From positions 1 to 64,000 of IMG/VR virus record IMGVR_UViG_3300020048_000026: a DNA stretch of 64,000 nt; one strand, 5' to 3'. This DNA comes from a virus. A program made the translations under genes and the position numbers. The notes under the pieces were generated by a model, which was given only the letters and a program-made list of their open reading frames with translations, did not search any database and was not told where the DNA came from. Shown one piece after another: positions 3,497 to 60,611 of this stretch (position 1 is the stretch's first letter; each line of letters opens with the position of its first letter).

Positions 3497-4291
3497 ATGA
3501 AAAAATTCACAACTTTAAATGAAGAAGTAAAACCAAAATATGAAATAAGAGATTCATTGAGAAATGAAATTTATTCATTAATAGAAAATTCTTTATCCAT
3601 TAAGATAACTAATGAAGAACTTTTAGATAAGGATATTAATATCAACGGTAAAGAAGAATTAGTAGAAAAAATTAAAAGTTTAATTGATGATGTTAGAATC
3701 AAAGAAAGAACATTTACTTTAGAAACAGTTAAAACAAATGTATATCGCAATTTTGATATGAAATGGTTGAATGAGCAAATTGCAGGTCTTAATAAAATAA
3801 AAATTGGAAAAGATTTTGTGTTAGCTGAAAACATACAAGATTCAAATCCTGTAACTGAGGATAAAGCAAAATTACTTCAGTACTTTGTTAAGAGATTACA
3901 CGAATTAAAACATATTGGAGGATATGAATTTAGTTATGAACCATCAGAAGGTATGTTTAAATTCACGAGTCCAGAAGATGGTGTAGTGGTTGTAGCAACA
4001 CCTTTTTATAATGATGCTAATGGTGTTCCAATTGAAGTTTTTAGTGAAGATGATCTTACAAAACATGTTATAATGAAACAAGTAAACTTTAAAATGGAAG
4101 AAGTATTATTTGATAGATATGAGCAAATTATGGAACAATTTTTAGAAGTTGATTATGATGAATGGATTGATAAAGTTGCAAAAGATGTGACAGAAGATGA
4201 GAAAGAAGTTGATCCATTATCAAAAAAAGATTGGAAAGAAGCCGAATGGAGAGGAAATCCTAATAATTTTCCATCAGGATCGTTAAAATAA
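3497..4291 (+). CDS. Putative internal head protein (CTS-like leader MKKFTTLNEE)
   Basis: Shared leader, internal LNE/LAE sites, acidic. Confidence 0.55.
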   Translation: MKKFTTLNEEVKPKYEIRDSLRNEIYSLIENSLSIKITNEELLDKDININGKEELVEKIKSLIDDVRIKERTFTLETVKTNVYRNFDMKWLNEQIAGLNKIKIGKDFVLAENIQDSNPVTEDKAKLLQYFVKRLHELKHIGGYEFSYEPSEGMFKFTSPEDGVVVVATPFYNDANGVPIEVFSEDDLTKHVIMKQVNFKMEEVLFDRYEQIMEQFLEVDYDEWIDKVAKDVTEDEKEVDPLSKKDWKEAEWRGNPNNFPSGSLK

Positions 4292-29708: not shown

Positions 29709-29717
29709 TAATATAAT

Positions 29718-30281
29718 ATGAACTTACCTTTTGTTGGTGATACTTTTGTGGTATCGGAATTTTTAAAATTAAAAAATCAATTTAACATTGAAACTGTAGT
29801 AGAAACTGGAACAAATAAAGGTGATACTACCTATTGGTTAGCTGAGAATTTCAATAATGTATATACTATAGAAATAACTGAATCTTCTTTAAATGAAGCT
29901 AAAAATAATTGTAATATTTTCAAAAATATTACATATTTTTGTGGTTCATCATCTCATTTTATGGATGATATAATATCAAAGGTTCAAAATGAGAAAGTTA
30001 TGTTTTTTTTAGATGCACATGGTGATAATCCTTGTCCAACTATTTCAGAATTAATAAGTATTAAGAAAATGAATATTAAACCTATCATATGTATTCATGA
30101 TTTTTATGTGCCTGGTAGTAACTTTTCTTGGGATTCATATAAAGATTTTGAATATAGGTTAGAAAATATTGAAAGTCTTATATGTGATATATATGGTGAT
30201 GATAATTATACATATTATTATAACTCAGAAGCAAATGGTTGTAATGTTGGTGTAATATATATTCTACCTAAAATAAATTAG
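29718..30281 (+). CDS. Class I SAM-dependent methyltransferase
   Basis: VETGTNKG, TIEI, GSS, FFLDAH, IHDF. Confidence 0.8.
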   Translation: MNLPFVGDTFVVSEFLKLKNQFNIETVVETGTNKGDTTYWLAENFNNVYTIEITESSLNEAKNNCNIFKNITYFCGSSSHFMDDIISKVQNEKVMFFLDAHGDNPCPTISELISIKKMNIKPIICIHDFYVPGSNFSWDSYKDFEYRLENIESLICDIYGDDNYTYYYNSEANGCNVGVIYILPKIN

Positions 30282-30284
30282 AAT

Positions 30285-31103
30285 ATGAAAAAGAATTTTG
30301 GTTTAATTAATATAGCTTCTGGTGGATTTTTTTCTAATTTTTTTGTTTCTCTATCAACCGCAATAGAGGCGGATAAAAATAATTTAATTCCTTATGTAGA
30401 ATTGAACAATACTGTTTTTTCTCAATTTAGTCATGAAGATAATGTAAACACTTGGAATTGGTGGTTTGATCAGGAGGAACCTAGTTCTGAAGATTCTATT
30501 ATAAATGTTTCAAAAAATATTGAAAGTTTTTTAAATTTTCCAGCACCGTTTGGTGATATAACTTGGAATAGAAAAGATATATGTGATAGCAGATTATTTT
30601 TTAATAATCATTTTAAAATAAAAGAACATATATTGAAAATGACTCACCAATATTATGATTCTTTTTTTAAAAATAAAGTTATTTTGGGTGTTATGGCAAG
30701 AGGTACAGAATTTAACAATATTCATCCCCAATATGGCGATCAAAATGTTTATACTTATGTTGATGAAGTAAAAAAAGTTTTATTAGAACATTCAGAAATA
30801 GATAATATTTTTTTAGTTACAGAAGATAGTGATTATATTAAAGTTTTTGATGATATTTTTGATAATTTATTATATATGAATGTTTTTAGAAGAACAACAC
30901 AAACATTAGAGTATTGTAAACGTAATTGGTTATGGCCTTATGAAAATTCTTCAAGAGAAAACCATACAAGAATTTTAGGTGACGAATGTTTATATCAAGC
31001 ATTATTGTTGGGTAAGTGTGATTATTTAGTGTGTAAAAGAAATAGTATGGCTGGTGCCGCAGTTTTTTTTAATGATAATTTAAAAAACGTATATTACGTA
31101 TAA
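30285..31103 (+). CDS. Second NodZ/GT23-like fucosyltransferase
   Basis: GFFSN, GVMARGTE, FLVTED, LLGKCD. Confidence 0.65.
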   Translation: MKKNFGLINIASGGFFSNFFVSLSTAIEADKNNLIPYVELNNTVFSQFSHEDNVNTWNWWFDQEEPSSEDSIINVSKNIESFLNFPAPFGDITWNRKDICDSRLFFNNHFKIKEHILKMTHQYYDSFFKNKVILGVMARGTEFNNIHPQYGDQNVYTYVDEVKKVLLEHSEIDNIFLVTEDSDYIKVFDDIFDNLLYMNVFRRTTQTLEYCKRNWLWPYENSSRENHTRILGDECLYQALLLGKCDYLVCKRNSMAGAAVFFNDNLKNVYYV

Positions 31104-56264: not shown

Positions 56265-56930
56265 ATGGGTACAAGAGGTTCATCAGGGTTTATCTATAAA
56301 GATACACCTTATTTAAATTACAATCATTATGATTCCTATCCAGATGGTTTAGGTAGAGATGTTTTACATTTTATTGTAGATGTAAATAAAGAAAATGGTT
56401 GGGATAAATTCAAAGAAAATTCAAATGATATTATTCCAATAACAGAAAAAAGGATAACAGATCCTGATATAATTGAAAAATATAAGAAATATGCCGATTT
56501 AAGTGTTTCAACCAAAACATATGATGATCCATATTGCTTATTTAGAAAAATACAAGATTCTTGGATGCCTGAAATTTTAAAAGGCGAACTTAAACATTTT
56601 ACTTTTAATGATAATTTCATTAAAGAATCACTATTTTGCGAATATGCTTATGTTATTAATCTAGATACCATGAAATTGGAATTTTATGATGGATATCAAA
56701 AAGAAAGTCAACCTTCTAATAGATTTGGTGAAATACCTAATGAAGATGGTTATTATCCTTGCCGTTTAGTTGCTGTTTTTGATCTTCAAAAAATTCAAAA
56801 TAGTACTGACGTTGGACATATTGTAGAAAAAATGGATTTAATTTGTGATTTAAAAAAAGATGATCCGTCCATTTTACAATATTTCCGAAAACCAAAATTG
56901 GATAAAATAAATGAAAAAGCCTCTTTATAG
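56265..56930 (+). CDS. Conserved phage hypothetical (MGTRG...YNHYDSYP.GLG) with RxxKL tail
   Basis: FCEYAYVINLD motif; ends FRKPKLDKINE. Confidence 0.65.
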   Translation: MGTRGSSGFIYKDTPYLNYNHYDSYPDGLGRDVLHFIVDVNKENGWDKFKENSNDIIPITEKRITDPDIIEKYKKYADLSVSTKTYDDPYCLFRKIQDSWMPEILKGELKHFTFNDNFIKESLFCEYAYVINLDTMKLEFYDGYQKESQPSNRFGEIPNEDGYYPCRLVAVFDLQKIQNSTDVGHIVEKMDLICDLKKDDPSILQYFRKPKLDKINEKASL

Positions 56931-56940
56931 AGGCTTTTTT
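56914..56940. terminator. Bidirectional terminator between the gene and the tRNAs
   Basis: aaaaagcctc tttata gaggcttttt. Confidence 0.8.
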
Positions 56941-56944
56941 CTTG

Positions 56945-57017
56945 CCCTAAGTGTAGGACTTGAACCTACGACCAACTATTTTAGAGATAGCTGCTCTACC
57001 AACTGAGCTAACAAAGG
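56945..57017 (-). tRNA. tRNA with CUA anticodon (amber suppressor), copy 1
   Basis: CCTTTGT TA GCTC AGTTGGTA GAGC A GCTAT CTCTAAA ATAGT TGGTC GTAGG TTCAAGT CCTAC ACTTAGG G; two U-U mismatches in the acceptor stem. Confidence 0.85.
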
Positions 57018-57023
57018 ATTTTG

Positions 57024-57096
57024 AGATCCAGGTGGGGATCGAACCCACGACCAACTATTTTAGAGATAGCTTCTCTACCAACTGAGATACAAGATC
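57024..57096 (-). tRNA. tRNA with CUA anticodon (amber suppressor), copy 2
   Basis: GATCTTG TA TCTC AGTTGGTA GAGA A GCTAT CTCTAAA ATAGT TGGTC GTGGG TTCGATC CCCAC CTGGATC T; one U-U mismatch in the acceptor stem. Confidence 0.88.
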
Positions 57097-57102
57097 AAGT
57101 AA

Positions 57103-57130
57103 GTTATTAGAGGATTCGTCCTCTAATAAC
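57103..57130. other. Perfect 12-bp hairpin in the tRNA 5' leader
   Basis: gttattagagga ttcg tcctctaataac. Confidence 0.8.
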
Positions 57131-57134
57131 AATA

Positions 57135-57142
57135 CAAAAGTA
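57135..57142 (-). promoter_or_regulatory. Bacteroidota-type -7 element (TACTTTTG) upstream of the amber tRNAs
   Basis: Matches TAnnTTTG. Confidence 0.6.
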
Positions 57143-57166
57143 CTACTTTTCTTCCATAGAAAAAAA

Positions 57167-57583
57167 TTATTTATAAAAATTACCTTTTTCTAATTTATAT
57201 ATTTTTAAAAGCCTATCAGCCTCATTTCTCGCCTTAATCCATTCTTTTCTGGCGTTCTGGATTTTTTCTTCTTTAACAGATGGTTTAATACGAACCTTTT
57301 CTATTTCAAAAAGTCTTGATAACAATCCTAAAAAAGTGTTAATCTTCCTTAATGATGGCTTTTCACTTCTTTCAATCCAGTAACAATATTTCTGGATTTT
57401 TTTCATTTGATTTTGTGATAAATTTTTCCATTTAATCTCATAATATTTTTCAATATCACCTGATACTTGGTAATTATTTTCTTTGATAACTTTTTCAATT
57501 TTTTCAATTGCGTCTGCGATTTTGCTATCAATTTCACTTCTACTGTAGGTATACTCAATACCTGATGCTAATGTTGTTTCCAT
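57167..57583 (-). CDS. Basic hypothetical protein
   Basis: Clean ORF downstream of the minigene. Confidence 0.6.
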   Translation of the reverse strand: METTLASGIEYTYSRSEIDSKIADAIEKIEKVIKENNYQVSGDIEKYYEIKWKNLSQNQMKKIQKYCYWIERSEKPSLRKINTFLGLLSRLFEIEKVRIKPSVKEEKIQNARKEWIKARNEADRLLKIYKLEKGNFYK

Positions 57584-57673
57584 AATGTTTTTTTGTTTTT
57601 TGTTTTTTTATAAAAAATTGTTTAATTGTAATTGAATTCTTGATTCGCGAATTGCGAATTTCTTATGGAAACT

Positions 57674-57697
57674 TTAAGGTGGTTTGTTCTACGTCAT
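57674..57697 (-). other. Minigene ATG ACG TAG AAC AAA CCA CCT TAA (MT-amber-NKPP) with strong SD
   Basis: AAAGGAG lies 6 nt before the ATG; first three codons identical to the Pth2-like gene. Confidence 0.7.
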
Positions 57698-57718
57698 AAC
57701 GTTCTCCTTTCTTTTTTT

Positions 57719-58099
57719 TTATATAATTTCTAATTTTTTTAATTTTGTTTTTCTCTCTTCTTTTTTTGATATATCAATCAAAAAATATTTTCCTTCTTTT
57801 TCATTATATTTTATTTGATAAATAAAAGGTCCCTCAGATATAACATCAAATTCAAAATAATTCTGTTTTGATTTTACAATATCATAACCAATTTTAGCAT
57901 TATTGTAAAAATTTAGAGTTTGAGTTCTATCTTCATTGTCATATTGACGATTAAGTAAACTAATTAAATTGTTCGCTAATCTCATATCACTAAATTCATC
58001 ATGAACTTTAGCATCCTTTATATCATCAAATAAACTCCAAAAAGAATCTGCTTTATATGATATTTTACCTTTTGATTCAATTTTAAATATCTTGCTCAT
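57719..58099 (-). CDS. Hypothetical with RxxKLxxL tail
   Basis: Ends ERKTKLKKLEII. Confidence 0.6.
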   Translation of the reverse strand: MSKIFKIESKGKISYKADSFWSLFDDIKDAKVHDEFSDMRLANNLISLLNRQYDNEDRTQTLNFYNNAKIGYDIVKSKQNYFEFDVISEGPFIYQIKYNEKEGKYFLIDISKKEERKTKLKKLEII

Positions 58100-58362
58100 A
58101 AATTATATTTTTTTGTTGCTTGATCTAATTCTACTCTTTCTTTAATTTTTTTCTGACTATACTCAATTGCAGTATCCATATACTCTGCTAAATGTTCACT
58201 ACAACAATTCGCTTCTAAATTTGATAACTGAGATCCACCAATAAAAACTAAGTATTTATCGTGATTTTGACAGTTTTCTTTACAACAATGTGAAGTATCT
58301 GAAAAACTTCCATGTATAACATGAACTTTGTAAAATTCGTAATATTCTTTATATGTAGCCAT
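58096..58362 (-). CDS. Cys/His-rich small protein with KYNL C-terminus
   Basis: CC..NC, CCSEH; ends ATKKYNL. Confidence 0.6.
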   Translation of the reverse strand: MATYKEYYEFYKVHVIHGSFSDTSHCCKENCQNHDKYLVFIGGSQLSNLEANCCSEHLAEYMDTAIEYSQKKIKERVELDQATKKYNL

Positions 58363-58366
58363 AATT

Positions 58367-58585
58367 TTAGATGTTATAATTGTTTAATTCATTGAAAAAT
58401 TCGTAAACTTCTTTTAATTTTTTAACCATTTCATTTCTATCACTCTCGTCAAAATATCCCATATAAGTTCCTTCATACCAACCGCCTCCACCAGATATTG
58501 ATTCACTTTGATGCCCAGTATAAGAACATTCACTTAGAGATTCTAATTCATTAATGACCTCTAATAATAATTTATCTTCAAGCAT
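58367..58585 (-). CDS. Hypothetical protein, translationally coupled to the Pth2-like gene
   Basis: GGAGG precedes ATG 58585, which overlaps the end of the upstream gene. Confidence 0.55.
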   Translation of the reverse strand: MLEDKLLLEVINELESLSECSYTGHQSESISGGGGWYEGTYMGYFDESDRNEMVKKLKEVYEFFNELNNYNI

Positions 58586-58967
58586 AAACCACCTCCTCTC
58601 CTTTGAAAGTATTTTTATCAATTCCATTAAATATATTGTATTCCTTTAACATTAAAGGTAAAGATGAGGTAAGCCTACGAGTTTTATCAGAAGGCTCAAT
58701 AGCAATCGCAGTAATCTGATTCCTAATATCAGGTTCACGAAAAACGACAAATTTTAAATGATTTTTTTCCAATTTTGAAATGAGAGAATATAATTCTTCT
58801 TCATTTTCTACAGAAAGCTGTGCTAAATAAGGGTCGTTGTACCAATAATTGGAAATTTGGTGATGTTCAACGAAAAACATAATCGCAGCATGGGTTGCTT
58901 GCGTTGCCTGATATCCAGGACTTAAATCTCTTCTTGTTACTGTTGTTAATTTGTTAACCTACGTCAT
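58578..58967 (-). CDS. Pth2-like peptidyl-tRNA hydrolase with in-frame TAG at codon 3
   Basis: MT*VNKLTTVTRRDLSPGYQATQATHAAIMFF...FREPDIRNQITAIA. The R.DL..G...Q..HA signature lies upstream of the track start. Confidence 0.8.
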
Positions 58968-59017
58968 GATTTCTAAATTGTTTTTAATGTATATATTAAT
59001 TTTTGTGTTTTGTTTTA

Positions 59018-59025
59018 CAAATGTA
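59018..59025 (-). promoter_or_regulatory. Bacteroidota-type -7 element (TACATTTG) upstream of the Pth2-like gene
   Basis: Matches TAnnTTTG; a TATATA motif also lies at about 58989-58999. Confidence 0.6.
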
Positions 59026-59055
59026 TGGAACTTTTTTAATAAAAAAAATTTTAAA

Positions 59056-59289
59056 AAATTAATTATCTCATAGCCGCGATCTTGTTTCTAATCTCACATT
59101 TATCTAAGTCTTTCAACTTCCTTTCCAACGAAAGGTGCTCCAACCCGACCTCACAGGGAAACCGACACCCTCAGTCTGTTTGGATTGCTACTTGTGTGGT
59201 GATAACGAATTTCTTCTCCCACAGTAGGTTTTGTAGTCGCGAACTTCCTCTAATATTTCTACCAGCGTAAGATCGAATAATTAATTTTT
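59056..59289 (-). ncRNA. rnpB: Minimal RNase P RNA (type A catalytic domain, specificity domain almost absent)
   Basis: P1 aaaattaattat/ataattaatttt; P2 ATCTTAC/GTGAGAT; P3 CTGGTA-GAAA-TATTAG; GAGGAAG; P4 AG(T)TCGCGA/TCGCGGCT; P5 CTAC/GTAG-CAA; P6 AAACC/GGTTT; P7 TGTGG/CCACA; P15 TCCAA/TTGGA; AGATAAAT; AAACAAGA. Confidence 0.88.
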
Positions 59290-59701
59290 AAAATTCAGGT
59301 TCGTTATAAATAACTTTTGCTTTTGCATCTTTTTTTACACCATTTTTGAAATAATATCTACTTGGATCATCACCAAATCCATTATCCCAATCAATATCCA
59401 ATTGAAAAACTAAAGTTGGATATTTTTTTGAAAATTCTTTAATATCATCTTCAATTTTATAGCCACTACCTGGCTCATTTGAATTACCATCAGAATTTAG
59501 TAAATATGAACAATCATCACTTGTGTCTAAAAGTTCATCTATGATTGTGTTGCTTGATACAATCATATCAATTTCATCTGAAGGTGAACCACATTTTGAA
59601 CAAAATTGACCATTGATTTGTGTTTTACAATTTGGACAAAATGGTACTTTATTTGTAATTTCACCAATAATTTTTAATTTAAAGTAATTTTCGTAACTCA
59701 T
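59288..59701 (-). CDS. Double zinc-ribbon protein
   Basis: CPNC...FCSKCG; FSKKYP. Confidence 0.65.
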   Translation of the reverse strand: MSYENYFKLKIIGEITNKVPFCPNCKTQINGQFCSKCGSPSDEIDMIVSSNTIIDELLDTSDDCSYLLNSDGNSNEPGSGYKIEDDIKEFSKKYPTLVFQLDIDWDNGFGDDPSRYYFKNGVKKDAKAKVIYNEPEF

Positions 59702-59705
59702 AATT

Positions 59706-60296
59706 TTATTTCAAGTTAAATCCGTTGTTTTTTAATGTGTCTTTTATATCTTCTACTGAAAGGTCACTTGTAAGTCCAACAAAGCCATTTTCATCCAATT
59801 GAATTTCACCAAGGTCAAGTTCTTCTATTTCTGGAAGTTCATCACAGGGATCCTGGTCTGATACATATTTTCCATTTTTCATCCAAACTGTTATTCCAAT
59901 ATTTATACCATCATTCTGATATAATTCTTTTTTCCAAGTTTCATTTGATAAACTGAAATCTTCAACTTCTAATAGATATTTAGAAACTTTTGATTTTGCT
60001 TTATAAATTGATGATGGTATACCATTTCCCTTTTTTACTAAAGTTGCATATTGTAAAATTGCAAGTCCGTAATCAGACATAATTTTATCTTTTTTTAATT
60101 TTAGTAAATTTTGATTTGTATTATTAATACCAATATTAGAATTTACTACTTTTAAAACAACTAATCCTGCATAATTATCATCTTTCAATTTGATAATTTC
60201 AAGTTCCATGTTATCTAACCAGCCATCTTTAACATTTATAATATCACCTTCGGAAAAACCGTTATAATTTGGTGAATAGTTTTTTACGTGTTTCAT
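59706..60296 (-). CDS. Hypothetical protein
   Basis: Start moved to ATG 60296, downstream of the promoter element. Confidence 0.6.
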   Translation of the reverse strand: MKHVKNYSPNYNGFSEGDIINVKDGWLDNMELEIIKLKDDNYAGLVVLKVVNSNIGINNTNQNLLKLKKDKIMSDYGLAILQYATLVKKGNGIPSSIYKAKSKVSKYLLEVEDFSLSNETWKKELYQNDGINIGITVWMKNGKYVSDQDPCDELPEIEELDLGEIQLDENGFVGLTSDLSVEDIKDTLKNNGFNLK

Positions 60297-60317
60297 ATTT
60301 TTTAATTTTTGATACAA

Positions 60318-60325
60318 CAAATGTA
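60318..60325 (-). promoter_or_regulatory. Bacteroidota-type -7 element (TACATTTG)
   Basis: Matches TAnnTTTG. Confidence 0.6.
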
Positions 60326-60350
60326 TAACAATTTTCTGAAACAAAAAAAT

Positions 60351-60611
60351 CTATTTCAAATTTTTTTGTGTAATAGGTTCATTACATTTAGGACATTTTA
60401 TATATCCCATACCCGATTCAGTTACAGACAAATAATCAAATGTATGCTTACACTTTGGACAAATAACAAGATTTCCTATCCTATCAAGAACTTTTTGTTT
60501 TTCATCATCTGTCATTCTCTTCCATTTAGCAATTTCTTTTCCAGTTCGTTTACAACCTTTACAAACTCCATCTACTAAACCACATTTATCTACACAAGGA
60601 CTCTTTATCAT
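60351..60611 (-). CDS. DUF1289-like Cys-rich protein plus zinc ribbon
   Basis: SPCV..C.....CKGCKRT..EI.KW; CPKC twice. Confidence 0.8.
   Translation of the reverse strand: MIKSPCVDKCGLVDGVCKGCKRTGKEIAKWKRMTDDEKQKVLDRIGNLVICPKCKHTFDYLSVTESGMGYIKCPKCNEPITQKNLK

What the first reader, a model, noticed from the sequence alone, without database searches (positions are those of the whole stretch)
56945..58967. Amber-gated translation circuit: two CUA tRNAs, a Pth2-like gene with TAG at codon 3, and a matching ATG-ACG-TAG minigene
Seen: two tRNA(CUA) genes sit at the end of a minus-strand run of genes. That run opens with a Pth2-like gene reading ATG ACG TAG GTT..., with no ATG/GTG/TTG between the TAG and the R.DL..G...Q..HA signature, so intact enzyme needs read-through. 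The same nine bases start a second tiny ORF at 57697. The long core genes are not interrupted by TAG, so this is not genome-wide recoding. Known: two-codon minigenes such as lambda bar cause peptidyl-tRNA drop-off, which Pth relieves. Inference: without suppression the message makes only fMet-Thr, and with charged suppressor it makes the hydrolase. That would be a local switch sensing RF1 versus suppressor availability, possibly also controlling the coupled downstream gene. I do not know of a description of this arrangement.
Basis: partly seen in the sequence, partly recalled or inferred. Interest (0 to 1): 0.93.

Follow-up and report, generated by a model that had tools for sequence, protein, structure and literature searches.

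The report
Suppressor-tRNA-gated phage hydrolase operon
A large standard-code phage carries two tRNAs that read the stop codon UAG, and both a tRNA-hydrolase-like gene and a tiny leader gene in the same operon hold a UAG at codon 3, so the operon looks like a natural, apparently unpublished switch that turns on only while the stop is being read through.

Summary
Two tRNA(CUA) genes, a PTH2-like gene starting ATG ACG TAG, and a second ATGACGTAG all lie on one minus-strand operon. No other gene in the 155-kb contig needs TAG read-through.

The early stop is conserved. Of 50 distinct homologous loci, 39 begin ATG, then 1-4 codons, then a stop, with no other start before the domain. They include cultured Tenacibaculum phage pT24 and Stenotrophomonas phage RAS14, whose annotated starts are truncated. 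A matching suppressor tRNA lies within 4 kb in 28 of the 39.

One relative (L063) uses TAA and carries tRNA(UUA) instead.

The "minigene" is not a two-codon, bar-like ORF. It is a conserved 7-codon leader, M-x-UAG-x-K/R-P-P-UAA, with a strong Shine-Dalgarno site in a genome that almost never uses one. The sequence just after its stop pairs with the start codon of the next gene, a 138-aa protein ("p138") of unknown function. In L063 the leader's gate and end codons are swapped (TAA gate, TAG end).

Best reading: both outputs are made only when the phage suppressor is active, the hydrolase directly and p138 through an erm/SecM-like attenuator. Nothing is experimental.

This scan has reported the same cassette on other genomes. 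I found no published description.

The parts
58578..58967 (-). PTH2-like (peptidyl-tRNA-hydrolase-like) gene, 129 codons, starting ATG ACG TAG GTT
   Evidence: Pfam PTH2 at 31.8 bits against a cutoff of 23. The family profile hits solved Pth2 2zv3_A at E=1.4e-10. The next canonical start is Met30.
58959..58961 (-). Gate codon UAG at codon 3 of the PTH2-like gene
   Evidence: An early stop is conserved in 39 of 50 distinct homologues: TAG at codon 3 in 26, codon 4 in 8, codon 5 in 4, and TAA at codon 3 in 1. It is present in contigs from other samples.
58367..58585 (-). 72-aa ORF whose ATG overlaps the PTH2-like stop (ATGCTTGA), with its own strong SD (GGAGAGGAGG); possibly translationally coupled
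   Evidence: Read directly from the sequence. The same overlap (ATGA) and an SD occur in L001. No family match.
57719..58362 (-). Two small ORFs of unknown function (88 aa and 126 aa) between the hydrolase gene and the leader
   Evidence: ORF list. No significant family match.
57703..57710 (-). Strong Shine-Dalgarno site (AAAGGAGA) of the leader ORF
   Evidence: Conserved as AGAAAGGAG(G/A) in 14 IMG/VR loci. Only 7 of 171 ORFs in this genome have even a 4-mer SD.
57674..57697 (-). Leader ORF ATG ACG TAG AAC AAA CCA CCT TAA = M-T-UAG-N-K-P-P-stop
   Evidence: Conserved as M-x-UAG-x-K/R-P-P-UAA with synonymous Pro and Lys codon changes. L063 has a TAA gate and a TAG end.
57663..57672 (-). Anti-start segment GUUUCCAUAA, beginning 1 nt after the leader stop
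   Evidence: A 10-bp helix with 57576-57585 in the minimum-energy fold, z=-3.1. Duplex energies of -11 to -15 kcal/mol in 11 of 15 loci, with 0-1 of 300 shuffles as good. Compensatory change in L037.
57576..57585 (-). Start region UUAUGGAAAC of the 138-aa gene, the partner of the anti-start segment
57167..57583 (-). p138: conserved 138-aa helical protein of unknown function, always between the leader and the suppressor tRNA
   Evidence: Homologues in 33 fetched loci. Alignment A2. AF2 model with pLDDT 84. No informative fold or family match.
57104..57129 (-). Perfect hairpin (TTATTAGAGGA-CGA-ATCCTCTAATAA) between p138 and the first tRNA; role unknown
   Evidence: Read directly from the sequence; not tested further.
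57023..57096 (-). tRNA(CUA) 'type B' (acceptor GAUCUUG.., discriminator U); no encoded CCA
   Evidence: This type is conserved in L034, L037 and L038.
56944..57017 (-). tRNA(CUA) 'type A' (acceptor CCUUUGU.. with two mismatches, discriminator G); no encoded CCA
   Evidence: This type is conserved in L034, L035 and L038.
56914..56939 (-). Intrinsic terminator closing the operon just after the tRNAs
   Evidence: 11-bp stem followed by a T run.

Best explanation
This is a suppressor-tRNA-dependent operon with two outputs. The phage encodes two UAG-reading tRNAs at the operon's end.

(1) The PTH2-like gene has UAG as codon 3 and no other usable start. Without charged suppressor, ribosomes release only fMet-Thr. 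With it, they make the full enzyme.

(2) A 7-codon leader (M-T-UAG-N-K-P-P-UAA) is driven by a strong Shine-Dalgarno site in a genome that otherwise lacks them. It works as a read-through sensor. The 10 nt that begin one base after its UAA pair with the AUG region of the next gene, p138. A ribosome that ends at the UAG stops about 16 nt short of that helix. A ribosome that reads through reaches K-P-P-UAA, probably lingers there, and covers and melts the helix, freeing the p138 start.

Both outputs would therefore track the activity of the phage's own suppressor against host RF1.

Shown here: the sequence features, their conservation, and the joint change of stop codon, leader end codon and tRNA anticodon. 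Inferred: that the tRNAs are made and charged, that read-through and stalling occur, and what the outputs do.

My guess for the purpose is that the hydrolase recycles peptidyl-tRNAs produced when stops are overridden, made in proportion to suppression.
For: - Conservation: 39 of 50 distinct PTH2-like loci start ATG, 1-4 codons, then a stop, with no canonical start before the domain. They span 23-55% GC and several phage lineages.
- Cultured phages: in pT24 and RAS14 the annotated starts cut off conserved N-terminal residues.
- tRNA co-occurrence: a matching suppressor tRNA lies in the flank of at most 4 kb in 28 of the 39. Of the 11 remaining (non-gated or ambiguous) loci, five also carry a suppressor tRNA in the flank: L070 and the mycobacteriophages L013 and L016 (CUA), and the two Lak loci (UUA). 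L064 has a normal start and 19 tRNAs, none of them CUA.
- Covariation: L063 has ATG ACG TAA and only a tRNA(UUA). Its leader uses TAA as the gate and TAG as the end codon.
- Position follows the ORF start, not the fold: in pT24 (PTH2-like part first) and RAS14/XacN1 (PTH2-like part last) the stop sits at codon 3 of the fused ORF.
- TAG is otherwise almost absent inside these genes, and absent from other genes of this contig.
- Leader: 14 of 16 pattern hits in IMG/VR lie upstream of a p138 homologue and a tRNA(CUA). Pro and Lys codons vary synonymously.
- Further leader classes also carry an early UAG and a Pro-containing end (MSxIRSP, MSxRNKSP, M[KR]xIVIRGPT). In L056 the leader is fused in frame to p138.
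- Anti-start helix: searches (z=-3.1; 11 of 15 loci, 0-1 of 300 shuffles as good), and GCUUCCAU:AUGGAAGC in L037 against GUUUCCAU:AUGGAAAC here.
- SD use is exceptional in this genome (7 of 171 ORFs).
- The base after the stop is always a purine.
Against: - Nothing is experimental. No RNA run holds the locus, and the charging, identity and expression of the tRNAs are unknown.
- One tRNA type has two acceptor-stem mismatches.
- A strong suppressor should be costly. TAG ends 13 of 176 long ORFs of this phage and an unknown share of host genes.
- Four of 15 leader-bearing loci, including the close relative L001, lack the anti-start helix, so that mechanism is not universal.
- The Pro codons could partly be kept for RNA pairing. 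The first Pro codon is CCA or CCG in all 14 CCN-CCN leaders and never CCU or CCC. In the helix-less subclade the Pro codons pair with a downstream GGUG.
- K-P-P-stop is not a proven arrest motif at this peptide length.
- 11 of the 39 gated loci show no suppressor in the fetched flank. Lak phages, L064 and L070 have ungated starts.
- The function of p138 is unknown.
Confidence: 0.7

Rival explanations
1. Remnant or fringe of ordinary stop-codon recoding. The lineage (Mahaphage/Lak relatives) reassigns TAG to an amino acid, and the TAG in these two ORFs is simply a sense codon with no regulatory role.
For: The nearest relatives are huge phages, some of which show further in-frame TAGs. The L001 hydrolase has a second TAG, and a neighbouring L001 ORF has one. 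Recoded phages with suppressor tRNAs are well documented (10.1101/2021.08.26.457843).
Against: A plain sense codon would drift to synonymous codons and to other positions. Here the stop stays at codons 3-5 of the ORF in 39 of 50 loci and is nearly the only one in the gene. It follows the ORF start even when the domain order is inverted. This 155-kb contig has no other in-frame TAG. In L063 the gate and end codons of the leader swap together with the anticodon.
Confidence: 0.12
2. Bar-like minigene system. The strongly translated ATG-ACG-TAG units are there to generate fMet-Thr-tRNA drop-off. This would sequester a rare host tRNA (ACG/TCG readers) as a host-shutoff or autoregulatory device that the phage hydrolase relieves. 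Read-through would be incidental.
For: The leader has a strong SD. Rare NCG codons sit at codon 2 in a 27% GC genome (ACG, TCG). It is physically linked to a peptidyl-tRNA-hydrolase-like gene. Lambda bar minigenes are known to be toxic when Pth is limiting (established knowledge).
Against: Codon 2 is not conserved (Thr, Ser, Phe, Tyr, Leu, Ile, Lys), so no single tRNA is targeted. The four codons after the UAG are kept at the amino-acid level, and the ORF length is kept at 7 codons (8 in L038 and L063). The stop is always the one matched by the phage tRNA, never the genome's usual TAA, except where the tRNA is UUA.
Confidence: 0.08
3. Start-stop uORF with re-initiation. ATG-NNN-TAG is a mini-uORF, and the real hydrolase start is the next codon (AUU/AUA/GUN), reached by termination-reinitiation without any suppressor.
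For: The codon after the stop is ATT, ATA or ATC in 27 of 39 gated loci and GTA or GTT in 6. In mycobacteriophages Bxz1 and Myrna a GTG follows the TAG directly and is the annotated start, with a well-placed SD in Myrna.
Against: The stop is TAG in 38 of 39 loci, although TAA is the dominant stop in these AT-rich genomes (124 of 176 here). In several loci AAC, AGC, ACA, ACT or AAA follows the stop. The one TAA case comes with tRNA(UUA). The leader's post-UAG codons are conserved as coding.
Confidence: 0.05
4. Artefact or decay: a sequencing error, or a pseudogene next to unrelated tRNAs.
For: This is a single metagenomic contig. Two relatives (L049, L050) have the domain out of frame with the nearest ATG.
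Against: The same TAG is present in contigs from other samples and in dozens of diverged homologues, including cultured phages. The rest of the ORF is intact with its invariant residues kept.
Confidence: 0.01

Closest known systems
Stop-codon-recoded phages with suppressor tRNAs ('code 15', TAG read as Gln; Lak, crAss-like and the 'gemstone' clades; Borges et al., 10.1101/2021.08.26.457843)
   Same: A phage-encoded tRNA(CUA) overrides a host stop codon, and in-frame stops are proposed to delay expression of certain genes until the tRNA is active.
   Different: There, many genes (mainly late and lysis genes) carry many in-frame stops at varied positions. Here a standard-code genome keeps one stop at codon 3 of one enzyme gene and one in a leader. 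The paper does not mention the hydrolase or an early-codon rule.
Leader-peptide translational attenuation and arrest peptides (ermC, cat, SecM-secA, MifM, and RAPP/RGPP peptides ApdA/ApdP/ApcA; PMC7897499, PMC10951233, PMC12992588)
   Same: A short upstream ORF with its own ribosome-binding site, a Pro-rich C-terminal motif, and an RNA helix that hides the next gene's start and would be opened by a paused ribosome.
   Different: The signal is not a drug, a secretion state or an amino acid. It is whether a stop codon inside the leader is read through. The peptide is only 7 residues and ends K/R-P-P-stop (or IRGPT-stop), which is not in register with RAPP. Stalling is not shown.
prfB (RF2) autoregulation through an early in-frame UGA
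   Same: An in-frame stop near the 5' end makes synthesis of a translation factor depend on how efficiently that stop is recognised.
   Different: prfB escapes by a +1 frameshift and senses its own product. Here the ORF stays in frame and escape needs a dedicated suppressor tRNA. The product is a hydrolase-like enzyme, not a release factor.
Lambda bar minigenes and Pth
   Same: A two-sense-codon ORF behind a strong SD, and a link to peptidyl-tRNA hydrolase biology.
   Different: Bar toxicity depends on a specific last sense codon (AUA) and ends at the stop. Here codon 2 varies and the codons beyond the stop are conserved.
Synthetic amber-suppressor gene gates (PMC7969014, a sup-tRNA feed-forward loop; PMC6412442 section 6, UAG placed in the tna leader)
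   Same: The same logic: a UAG placed early in a gene or in a leader peptide makes the output depend on a suppressor tRNA.
   Different: Those are engineered. This would be a natural counterpart, conserved across phage lineages.
'Orphan' suppressor tRNAs of cultured standard-code jumbo phages (XacN1: two tRNA-CUA, no target found; PMC5852040)
   Same: tRNA(CUA) in a phage that uses TAG as a stop.
   Different: That study read through 18 annotated amber stops and found no target. The XacN1 PTH2-like fusion gene ORF364 is preceded in frame by ATG AAG TAG, and its RAS14 homologue has no other start. This offers a candidate target.

Membership tests
PTH2 peptidyl-tRNA hydrolase (PF01981) | Sequence match above the Pfam gathering score over the whole domain | tested here: met
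   31.8 bits against a cutoff of 23, profile positions 2-113 of 115. The profile of 15 homologues hits solved Pth2 chains: 2zv3_A at E=1.4e-10, and 1rzw, 1wn2 and 1q7s.
PTH2 peptidyl-tRNA hydrolase (PF01981) | Conserved active-site motifs (G-K..AQ..HA loop; D-A-G..T) | tested here: inconclusive
   Q20, H23, E75, D77 and T83 are invariant in the family. However, the loop is 2 residues shorter and lacks the canonical Lys, and the canonical Asp aligns with Glu of an E-P-D motif.
PTH2 peptidyl-tRNA hydrolase (PF01981) | Hydrolysis of peptidyl-tRNA | not testable with these tools
   Needs an enzyme assay.
Stop-codon-recoded phage (code 15) | Many genes, especially late genes, interrupted by in-frame TAG | tested here: not met
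   Only the PTH2-like gene and the leader need TAG read-through in 154,853 bp. TAG ends 13 of 176 long ORFs.
Stop-codon-recoded phage (code 15) | Phage-encoded suppressor tRNA | tested here: met
   Two tRNA(CUA) genes.
Leader-peptide translational attenuator (erm/cat/SecM type) | Short upstream ORF with its own ribosome-binding site | tested here: met
   A 7-codon ORF behind AAAGGAGA, conserved in 14 IMG/VR loci.
Leader-peptide translational attenuator (erm/cat/SecM type) | RNA helix that sequesters the downstream start and lies within reach of a ribosome at the end of the leader | tested here: met
   A 10-bp helix starting 1 nt after the UAA. Present in 11 of 15 loci and well beyond shuffles. 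Wobble and full compensatory changes. Absent in one subclade.
Leader-peptide translational attenuator (erm/cat/SecM type) | Programmed ribosome pausing on the leader | not testable with these tools
   K/R-P-P-stop and IRGPT-stop contain Pro motifs known to slow termination or peptide-bond formation (own knowledge; PMC12992588). Toeprinting or ribosome profiling is needed.
RAPP/RGPP arrest peptides | C-terminal R-A/G-P-P motif in that register | tested here: not met
   The window leader ends N-K-P-P. Relatives end x-K/R-P-P, R-S-P, K-S-P or I-R-G-P-T. None has R-x-P-P.
Lambda bar-type minigene | ORF of two sense codons with a strong SD | tested here: met
   ATG ACG TAG behind AAAGGAGA.
Lambda bar-type minigene | Effect tied to a particular last sense codon, with nothing functional beyond the stop | tested here: not met
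   Codon 2 varies widely, and the four codons after the stop are conserved with synonymous changes.

The most novel reading that the evidence does not exclude
Large phages of many lineages carry a self-contained read-through sensor. It comprises a suppressor tRNA, a hydrolase gene locked by the matching stop at its 5' end, and (in this clade) a leader peptide that converts read-through into unmasking of a second gene's start. This would be the long-sought natural target of 'orphan' suppressor tRNAs in standard-code phages. It could also be the checkpoint from which full stop-codon recoding evolved, because it lets a phage measure how far the stop has been overridden before committing.
Probability: 0.4. 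Interest if true: 0.9.

Novelty: new variant of a known kind. Interest (0 to 1): 0.85.

Why it matters
- It gives suppressor tRNAs in standard-code phages a concrete, conserved client gene. The XacN1 authors looked for such a target and did not find one.
- It corrects the annotated starts of the hydrolase-like genes of cultured phages pT24 and RAS14.
- It points to a natural counterpart of the amber-suppressor gates and UAG-bearing leader peptides built in synthetic biology.
- It offers a small, testable system for how a virus senses and tunes stop-codon read-through in a host with the normal code. It may also show how code change starts.
- Cultured phages with the module exist, so the key experiments are feasible.

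Tried and rejected
- **tRNA identity.** The two CUA tRNAs are 80% alike and at most 68% like any other tRNA of the phage. The amino acid they carry could not be assigned.
- **p138 function.** No Pfam or PHROG match. No Foldseek hit against PDB at E<=0.001. VIA-align wide search gave a best Z of 6.5 on generic helical bundles. The Atlas gave no usable feature hit.
- **Rfam.** A scan of 56500-60000 found only the two tRNAs above threshold, and nothing for the GC-richer element at 59056-59289.
- **Wide alignment search.** The search for related loci with the 15-sequence alignment A3 failed for lack of a conserved stretch, so I used the closer alignment A4.
- **In-frame TAG counts.** A crude count in neighbouring frames of the fetched loci was uninformative for GC-richer loci, where long spurious frames occur.
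- **Sequencing runs.** No RNA holder was listed. All holders are contigs from aquatic or freshwater metagenomes.
- **9-mer enrichment.** With one mismatch allowed, the 9-mer is not enriched.
- **Genome-wide early TAG.** ATG-NNN-TAG followed by an open frame is no more common in this genome than the TGA equivalent (16 against 17). Early TAG is therefore not a general start feature here.
- **HD-motif domain.** The domain fused to the PTH2-like part in pT24 and XacN1 has no homologue in this contig and no Pfam match.
- **Lak-A2.** My first reading of an in-frame ATG AAT TAG was wrong; it is out of frame.
Full report
**1. What is in the window**

The minus strand between about 59000 and 56900 holds one gene run that ends in an intrinsic terminator at 56939-56914. 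In order it contains:
- a 129-codon ORF at 58967-58578 that reads ATG ACG TAG GTT...;
- a 72-aa ORF whose ATG overlaps that ORF's stop (ATGCTTGA);
- two small ORFs of 88 and 126 aa;
- a tiny ORF at 57697-57674;
- a 138-aa ORF at 57583-57167, called p138 here;
- two tRNA genes with anticodon CUA, at 57096-57023 and 57017-56944.

Read through the TAG, the first ORF matches Pfam PTH2 above the gathering score: 31.8 bits against 23, covering the whole model from residue 6. A profile of 15 homologues hits solved archaeal and human Pth2 structures, with 2zv3_A at E=1.4e-10. The next canonical start is Met30, after the conserved R.DL..G.Q..Q..HA block.

The window is the first 64 kb of a single 154,853-bp contig at 26.6% GC. 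Its large terminase is 52% identical to that of the 735-kb 'huge phage' LR756501. In the whole contig no other plausible gene needs TAG read-through, and TAG ends 13 of 176 ORFs of at least 100 aa. Contigs from two other samples of the same study carry the same TAG.

**2. The early stop is conserved and tied to the tRNA**

I inspected the DNA of homologues from GenBank phages and IMG/VR. Of 50 distinct loci, 39 begin ATG, then 1-4 sense codons, then a stop, with no ATG/GTG/TTG before the domain. The stop is TAG at codon 3 in 26 loci, at codon 4 in 8 and at codon 5 in 4, and TAA at codon 3 in 1. These loci range from 23% to 55% GC.

Cultured phages are among them:
- Tenacibaculum phage pT24 starts ATG AAA TAG ATA.... 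Its annotated CDS begins 42 codons later, at the first ATG after the stop, which removes the catalytic motif.
- Stenotrophomonas phage RAS14 starts ATG AAG TAG ACC.... Its annotated GTG start cuts conserved residues.

In pT24 the PTH2-like part is N-terminal to a second domain carrying an H-D-x-G-K-P motif. In RAS14 and XacN1 the order is inverted. In both cases the stop sits at codon 3 of the fused ORF. The stop therefore belongs to the ORF start, not to a residue of the fold.

A matching suppressor tRNA lies within the fetched flank of at most 4 kb in 28 of the 39 gated loci. The 11 remaining loci are less clean: five of them also carry a suppressor tRNA in the flank (L070, Myrna and Bxz1 with CUA; the two Lak loci with UUA). 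L064 has a normal start and 19 flanking tRNAs, none of them CUA.

The clearest single result is L063. Its hydrolase starts ATG ACG TAA GTA..., and the only tRNA in its flank has anticodon UUA.

The base after the stop is a purine in all 39 gated loci. From my own knowledge of E. coli amber suppression, that is the context most favourable to suppression.

**3. The second ATGACGTAG is a conserved leader, not a two-codon minigene**

Read through, it gives M-T-UAG-N-K-P-P-UAA. The pattern GGAG-N(4-7)-ATG-NNN-TAG-NNN-ANN-CCN-CCN-TAA found 16 places in IMG/VR. Fourteen of them have the same context: a p138 homologue 60-160 nt downstream, then a tRNA(CUA) in 13 of the 14 (L030 ends before the tRNA; its longer twin L035 shows it).

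- The peptides are M-[T/S/F/Y/L]-UAG-x-[K/R]-P-P.
- The Pro and Lys codons vary synonymously (CCA/CCG; CCT/CCC/CCA/CCG; AAA/AAG).

In L063 the leader reads ATG ACG TAA GTA AAT AAA CCA CCG TAG. The gate codon has become TAA, matching the UUA tRNA, and the end codon has become TAG.

Other subclades have different leaders in front of p138. All carry an early UAG and a Pro-containing end:
- MSxIRSP and MSxRNKSP;
- M[KR]xIVIRGPT;
- MKxIKITIRGPTYLF.

In L056 the leader is fused in frame to p138, which is then gated directly.

The strong AAAGGAG SD is exceptional in this genome. Only 7 of 171 long ORFs have even a 4-mer SD, which is below the random expectation and typical of a Bacteroidota-type host.

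The nine-base identity with the hydrolase start recurs in L001, L041, L040 and L063, but not in L003, L004, L035-L038. That is 5 matches among 11 loci, so it is not essential.

**4. How the leader could work**

One base after the leader's UAA lies GUUUCCAUAA. This is the exact complement of UUAUGGAAAC at the p138 start, and the minimum-energy fold of the region forms that 10-bp helix (z=-3.1).

- In 11 of 15 distinct loci, the 22 nt after the leader stop form a duplex of -11 to -15 kcal/mol with the p138 start region. At most 1 of 300 shuffles does as well.
- Variants keep the pairing through G-U wobble.
- L037 shows a full compensatory change: GCUUCCAU with AUGGAAGC.

A ribosome with UAG in its A site would protect about 12 nt downstream and end roughly 16 nt short of the helix. 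A ribosome with the final UAA in its A site would cover most of the helix. C-terminal Pro-Pro before a stop is known to slow termination (own knowledge), and RAPP/RGPP motifs arrest elongation (PMC10951233, PMC12992588). The motifs here resemble these but are not in the same register.

The design is that of erm/cat/SecM-type attenuators, with read-through of a stop as the input. One subclade (L001, L003, L020, L029) lacks the helix and has other conserved hairpins instead, so the read-out differs there.

**5. What remains open**

- The tRNAs fall into two types conserved among relatives. One of them has a mismatched acceptor stem. Their amino-acid identity could not be assigned, and they lack an encoded CCA.
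- p138 is a confidently modelled helical protein (pLDDT 84) with no informative structural or family match.
- The PTH2-like family keeps Q20, H23, E75, D77 and T83, but lacks the canonical loop Lys. Its substrate is therefore uncertain.
- No RNA data hold the locus.
- Why a hydrolase should be tied to suppression is inference. My preferred idea is feed-forward supply of a peptidyl-tRNA recycling activity in proportion to read-through. Negative feedback on the suppressor itself is an alternative.

**6. Rival explanations**

- *Plain recoding remnant.* Disfavoured by the positional, gene-specific conservation and the codon swap.
- *Bar-like drop-off minigene.* Disfavoured by the variable codon 2 and the conserved post-stop codons.
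- *Start-stop re-initiation at AUU/GUN.* Disfavoured by the exclusive use of the suppressor-matched stop, and by loci where AAC, AGC or ACA follows the stop.
- *Mycobacteriophages Bxz1 and Myrna.* These have ATG/GTG-TAG-GTG with a tRNA(CUA) nearby and remain ambiguous.
- *Lak phages.* These lack an in-frame early TAG.

**7. Literature and earlier notes**

Full-text searches found no description of an early stop in phage PTH2 genes or of a suppression-sensing leader.
- The Borges preprint on recoded phages does not mention the hydrolase.
- The jumbo-phage review notes PTH2 genes but not the stop.
- The XacN1 paper states that no target of its two CUA tRNAs was found.
- Synthetic analogues exist (PMC7969014; PMC6412442).

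This scan has already reported the same cassette on many other genomes, including stop/anticodon covariation and Pro-Pro or RGPP leaders. A later check of one such report kept the observation but priced the bold reading low, because nothing is experimental. I reached the points above from my own calls and set my confidence with that caution in mind.

**Verdict**

The feature is real and conserved. Its best reading is a suppressor-tRNA-gated operon with a direct gate and a leader-based attenuator. It is a new variant of known kinds (stop-codon recoding; leader-peptide attenuation). It appears unpublished and can be tested directly in cultured phages.

Noticed in passing
window 59056-59289 (-): A GC-richer intergenic stretch just upstream of the PTH2-like gene is conserved at 67-78% identity in relatives L035, L021, L063 and L004. 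In L035, L063 and L004 it lies upstream of their PTH2-like genes. It folds stably (-54.8 kcal/mol).
   Followed up: partly
L003:2974-3978 and L004:2098-3234: Relatives carry a second PTH2-like paralogue. It also starts ATG-NCG-TAG and is split after P-G-Y-Q by an in-frame insertion of about 200-250 aa with treble-clef zinc-finger and DUF723 domains, which looks like a homing-endonuclease-type insertion at the catalytic motif.
   Followed up: partly
L012 (pT24), L014 (XacN1), L015 (RAS14): The PTH2-like domain is fused, in either order, to a domain with H-D-x-G-K-P, H-F-P-N-H-A and H-D-M-x-x-H-T motifs (HD-phosphohydrolase-like by eye, with no Pfam hit). This suggests a two-enzyme tRNA-repair or recycling unit. 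The annotated starts of the pT24 and RAS14 genes are truncated.
   Followed up: partly
L049:~3930-4000 and L050:~3950-4000: In two homologues without a suppressor tRNA in the flank, the nearest ATG is followed by an early stop (ATG AAG CGG ATC TAA; ATG AAA GAA GAA CAG TTA GGC TGA). The PTH2 domain continues in the +1 frame from that stop. This is either an assembly indel or a prfB-like frameshift version of the gate.
   Followed up: no
window 29712-31103 (+) and 59706-60611 (-): Two TAG-terminated genes are in frame with the next gene (TAG, one or no codon, then the next start). An active amber suppressor would therefore make fusion proteins.
   Followed up: no
genome 66205-66294 (-), just beyond the window: The 29-codon ORF MALVKKHSSKSFKFWSHS..., noted by another reader upstream of the Lys/His/Ser/Phe/Trp tRNA array, exists as described. 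If it is a real leader, this phage would use codon-matched leader peptides in front of both of its tRNA clusters.
   Followed up: partly
whole contig: Only 7 of 171 ORFs of at least 100 aa have a 4-mer Shine-Dalgarno motif, which is below chance and points to a Bacteroidota-type host. The leader ORF and the 72-aa ORF after the hydrolase gene are rare exceptions with very strong SDs.
   Followed up: partly
L016 (Bxz1) 1468-1482; L013 (Myrna) 1971-1985: In mycobacteriophage cluster C, the PTH2 genes are preceded in frame by ATG TAG or GTG TAG directly before the annotated GTG start. A tRNA(CUA), annotated 'tRNA-OTHER' in Bxz1, lies about 130 nt (Myrna) to 300 nt (Bxz1) downstream. This may be a codon-2 version of the gate or a coincidence.
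   Followed up: partly
L017 (Lak-B1) and L011 (Lak-A2): Lak phages have a tRNA(UUA) about 0.6-0.7 kb upstream of their PTH2-like gene. Lak-B1 has ATG-x-x-TAA 30 codons upstream of the domain, but also an ordinary in-frame ATG after it. Lak-A2 has no clear start at all.
   Followed up: no
window 57691-57702 (-): A small hairpin places the leader AUG in its loop: ACGU-UAUG-ACGU here, against ACGA-UAUG-UCGU in L001 and L004. This is a compensatory pair linking codon 2 to the base before the AUG.
   Followed up: partly
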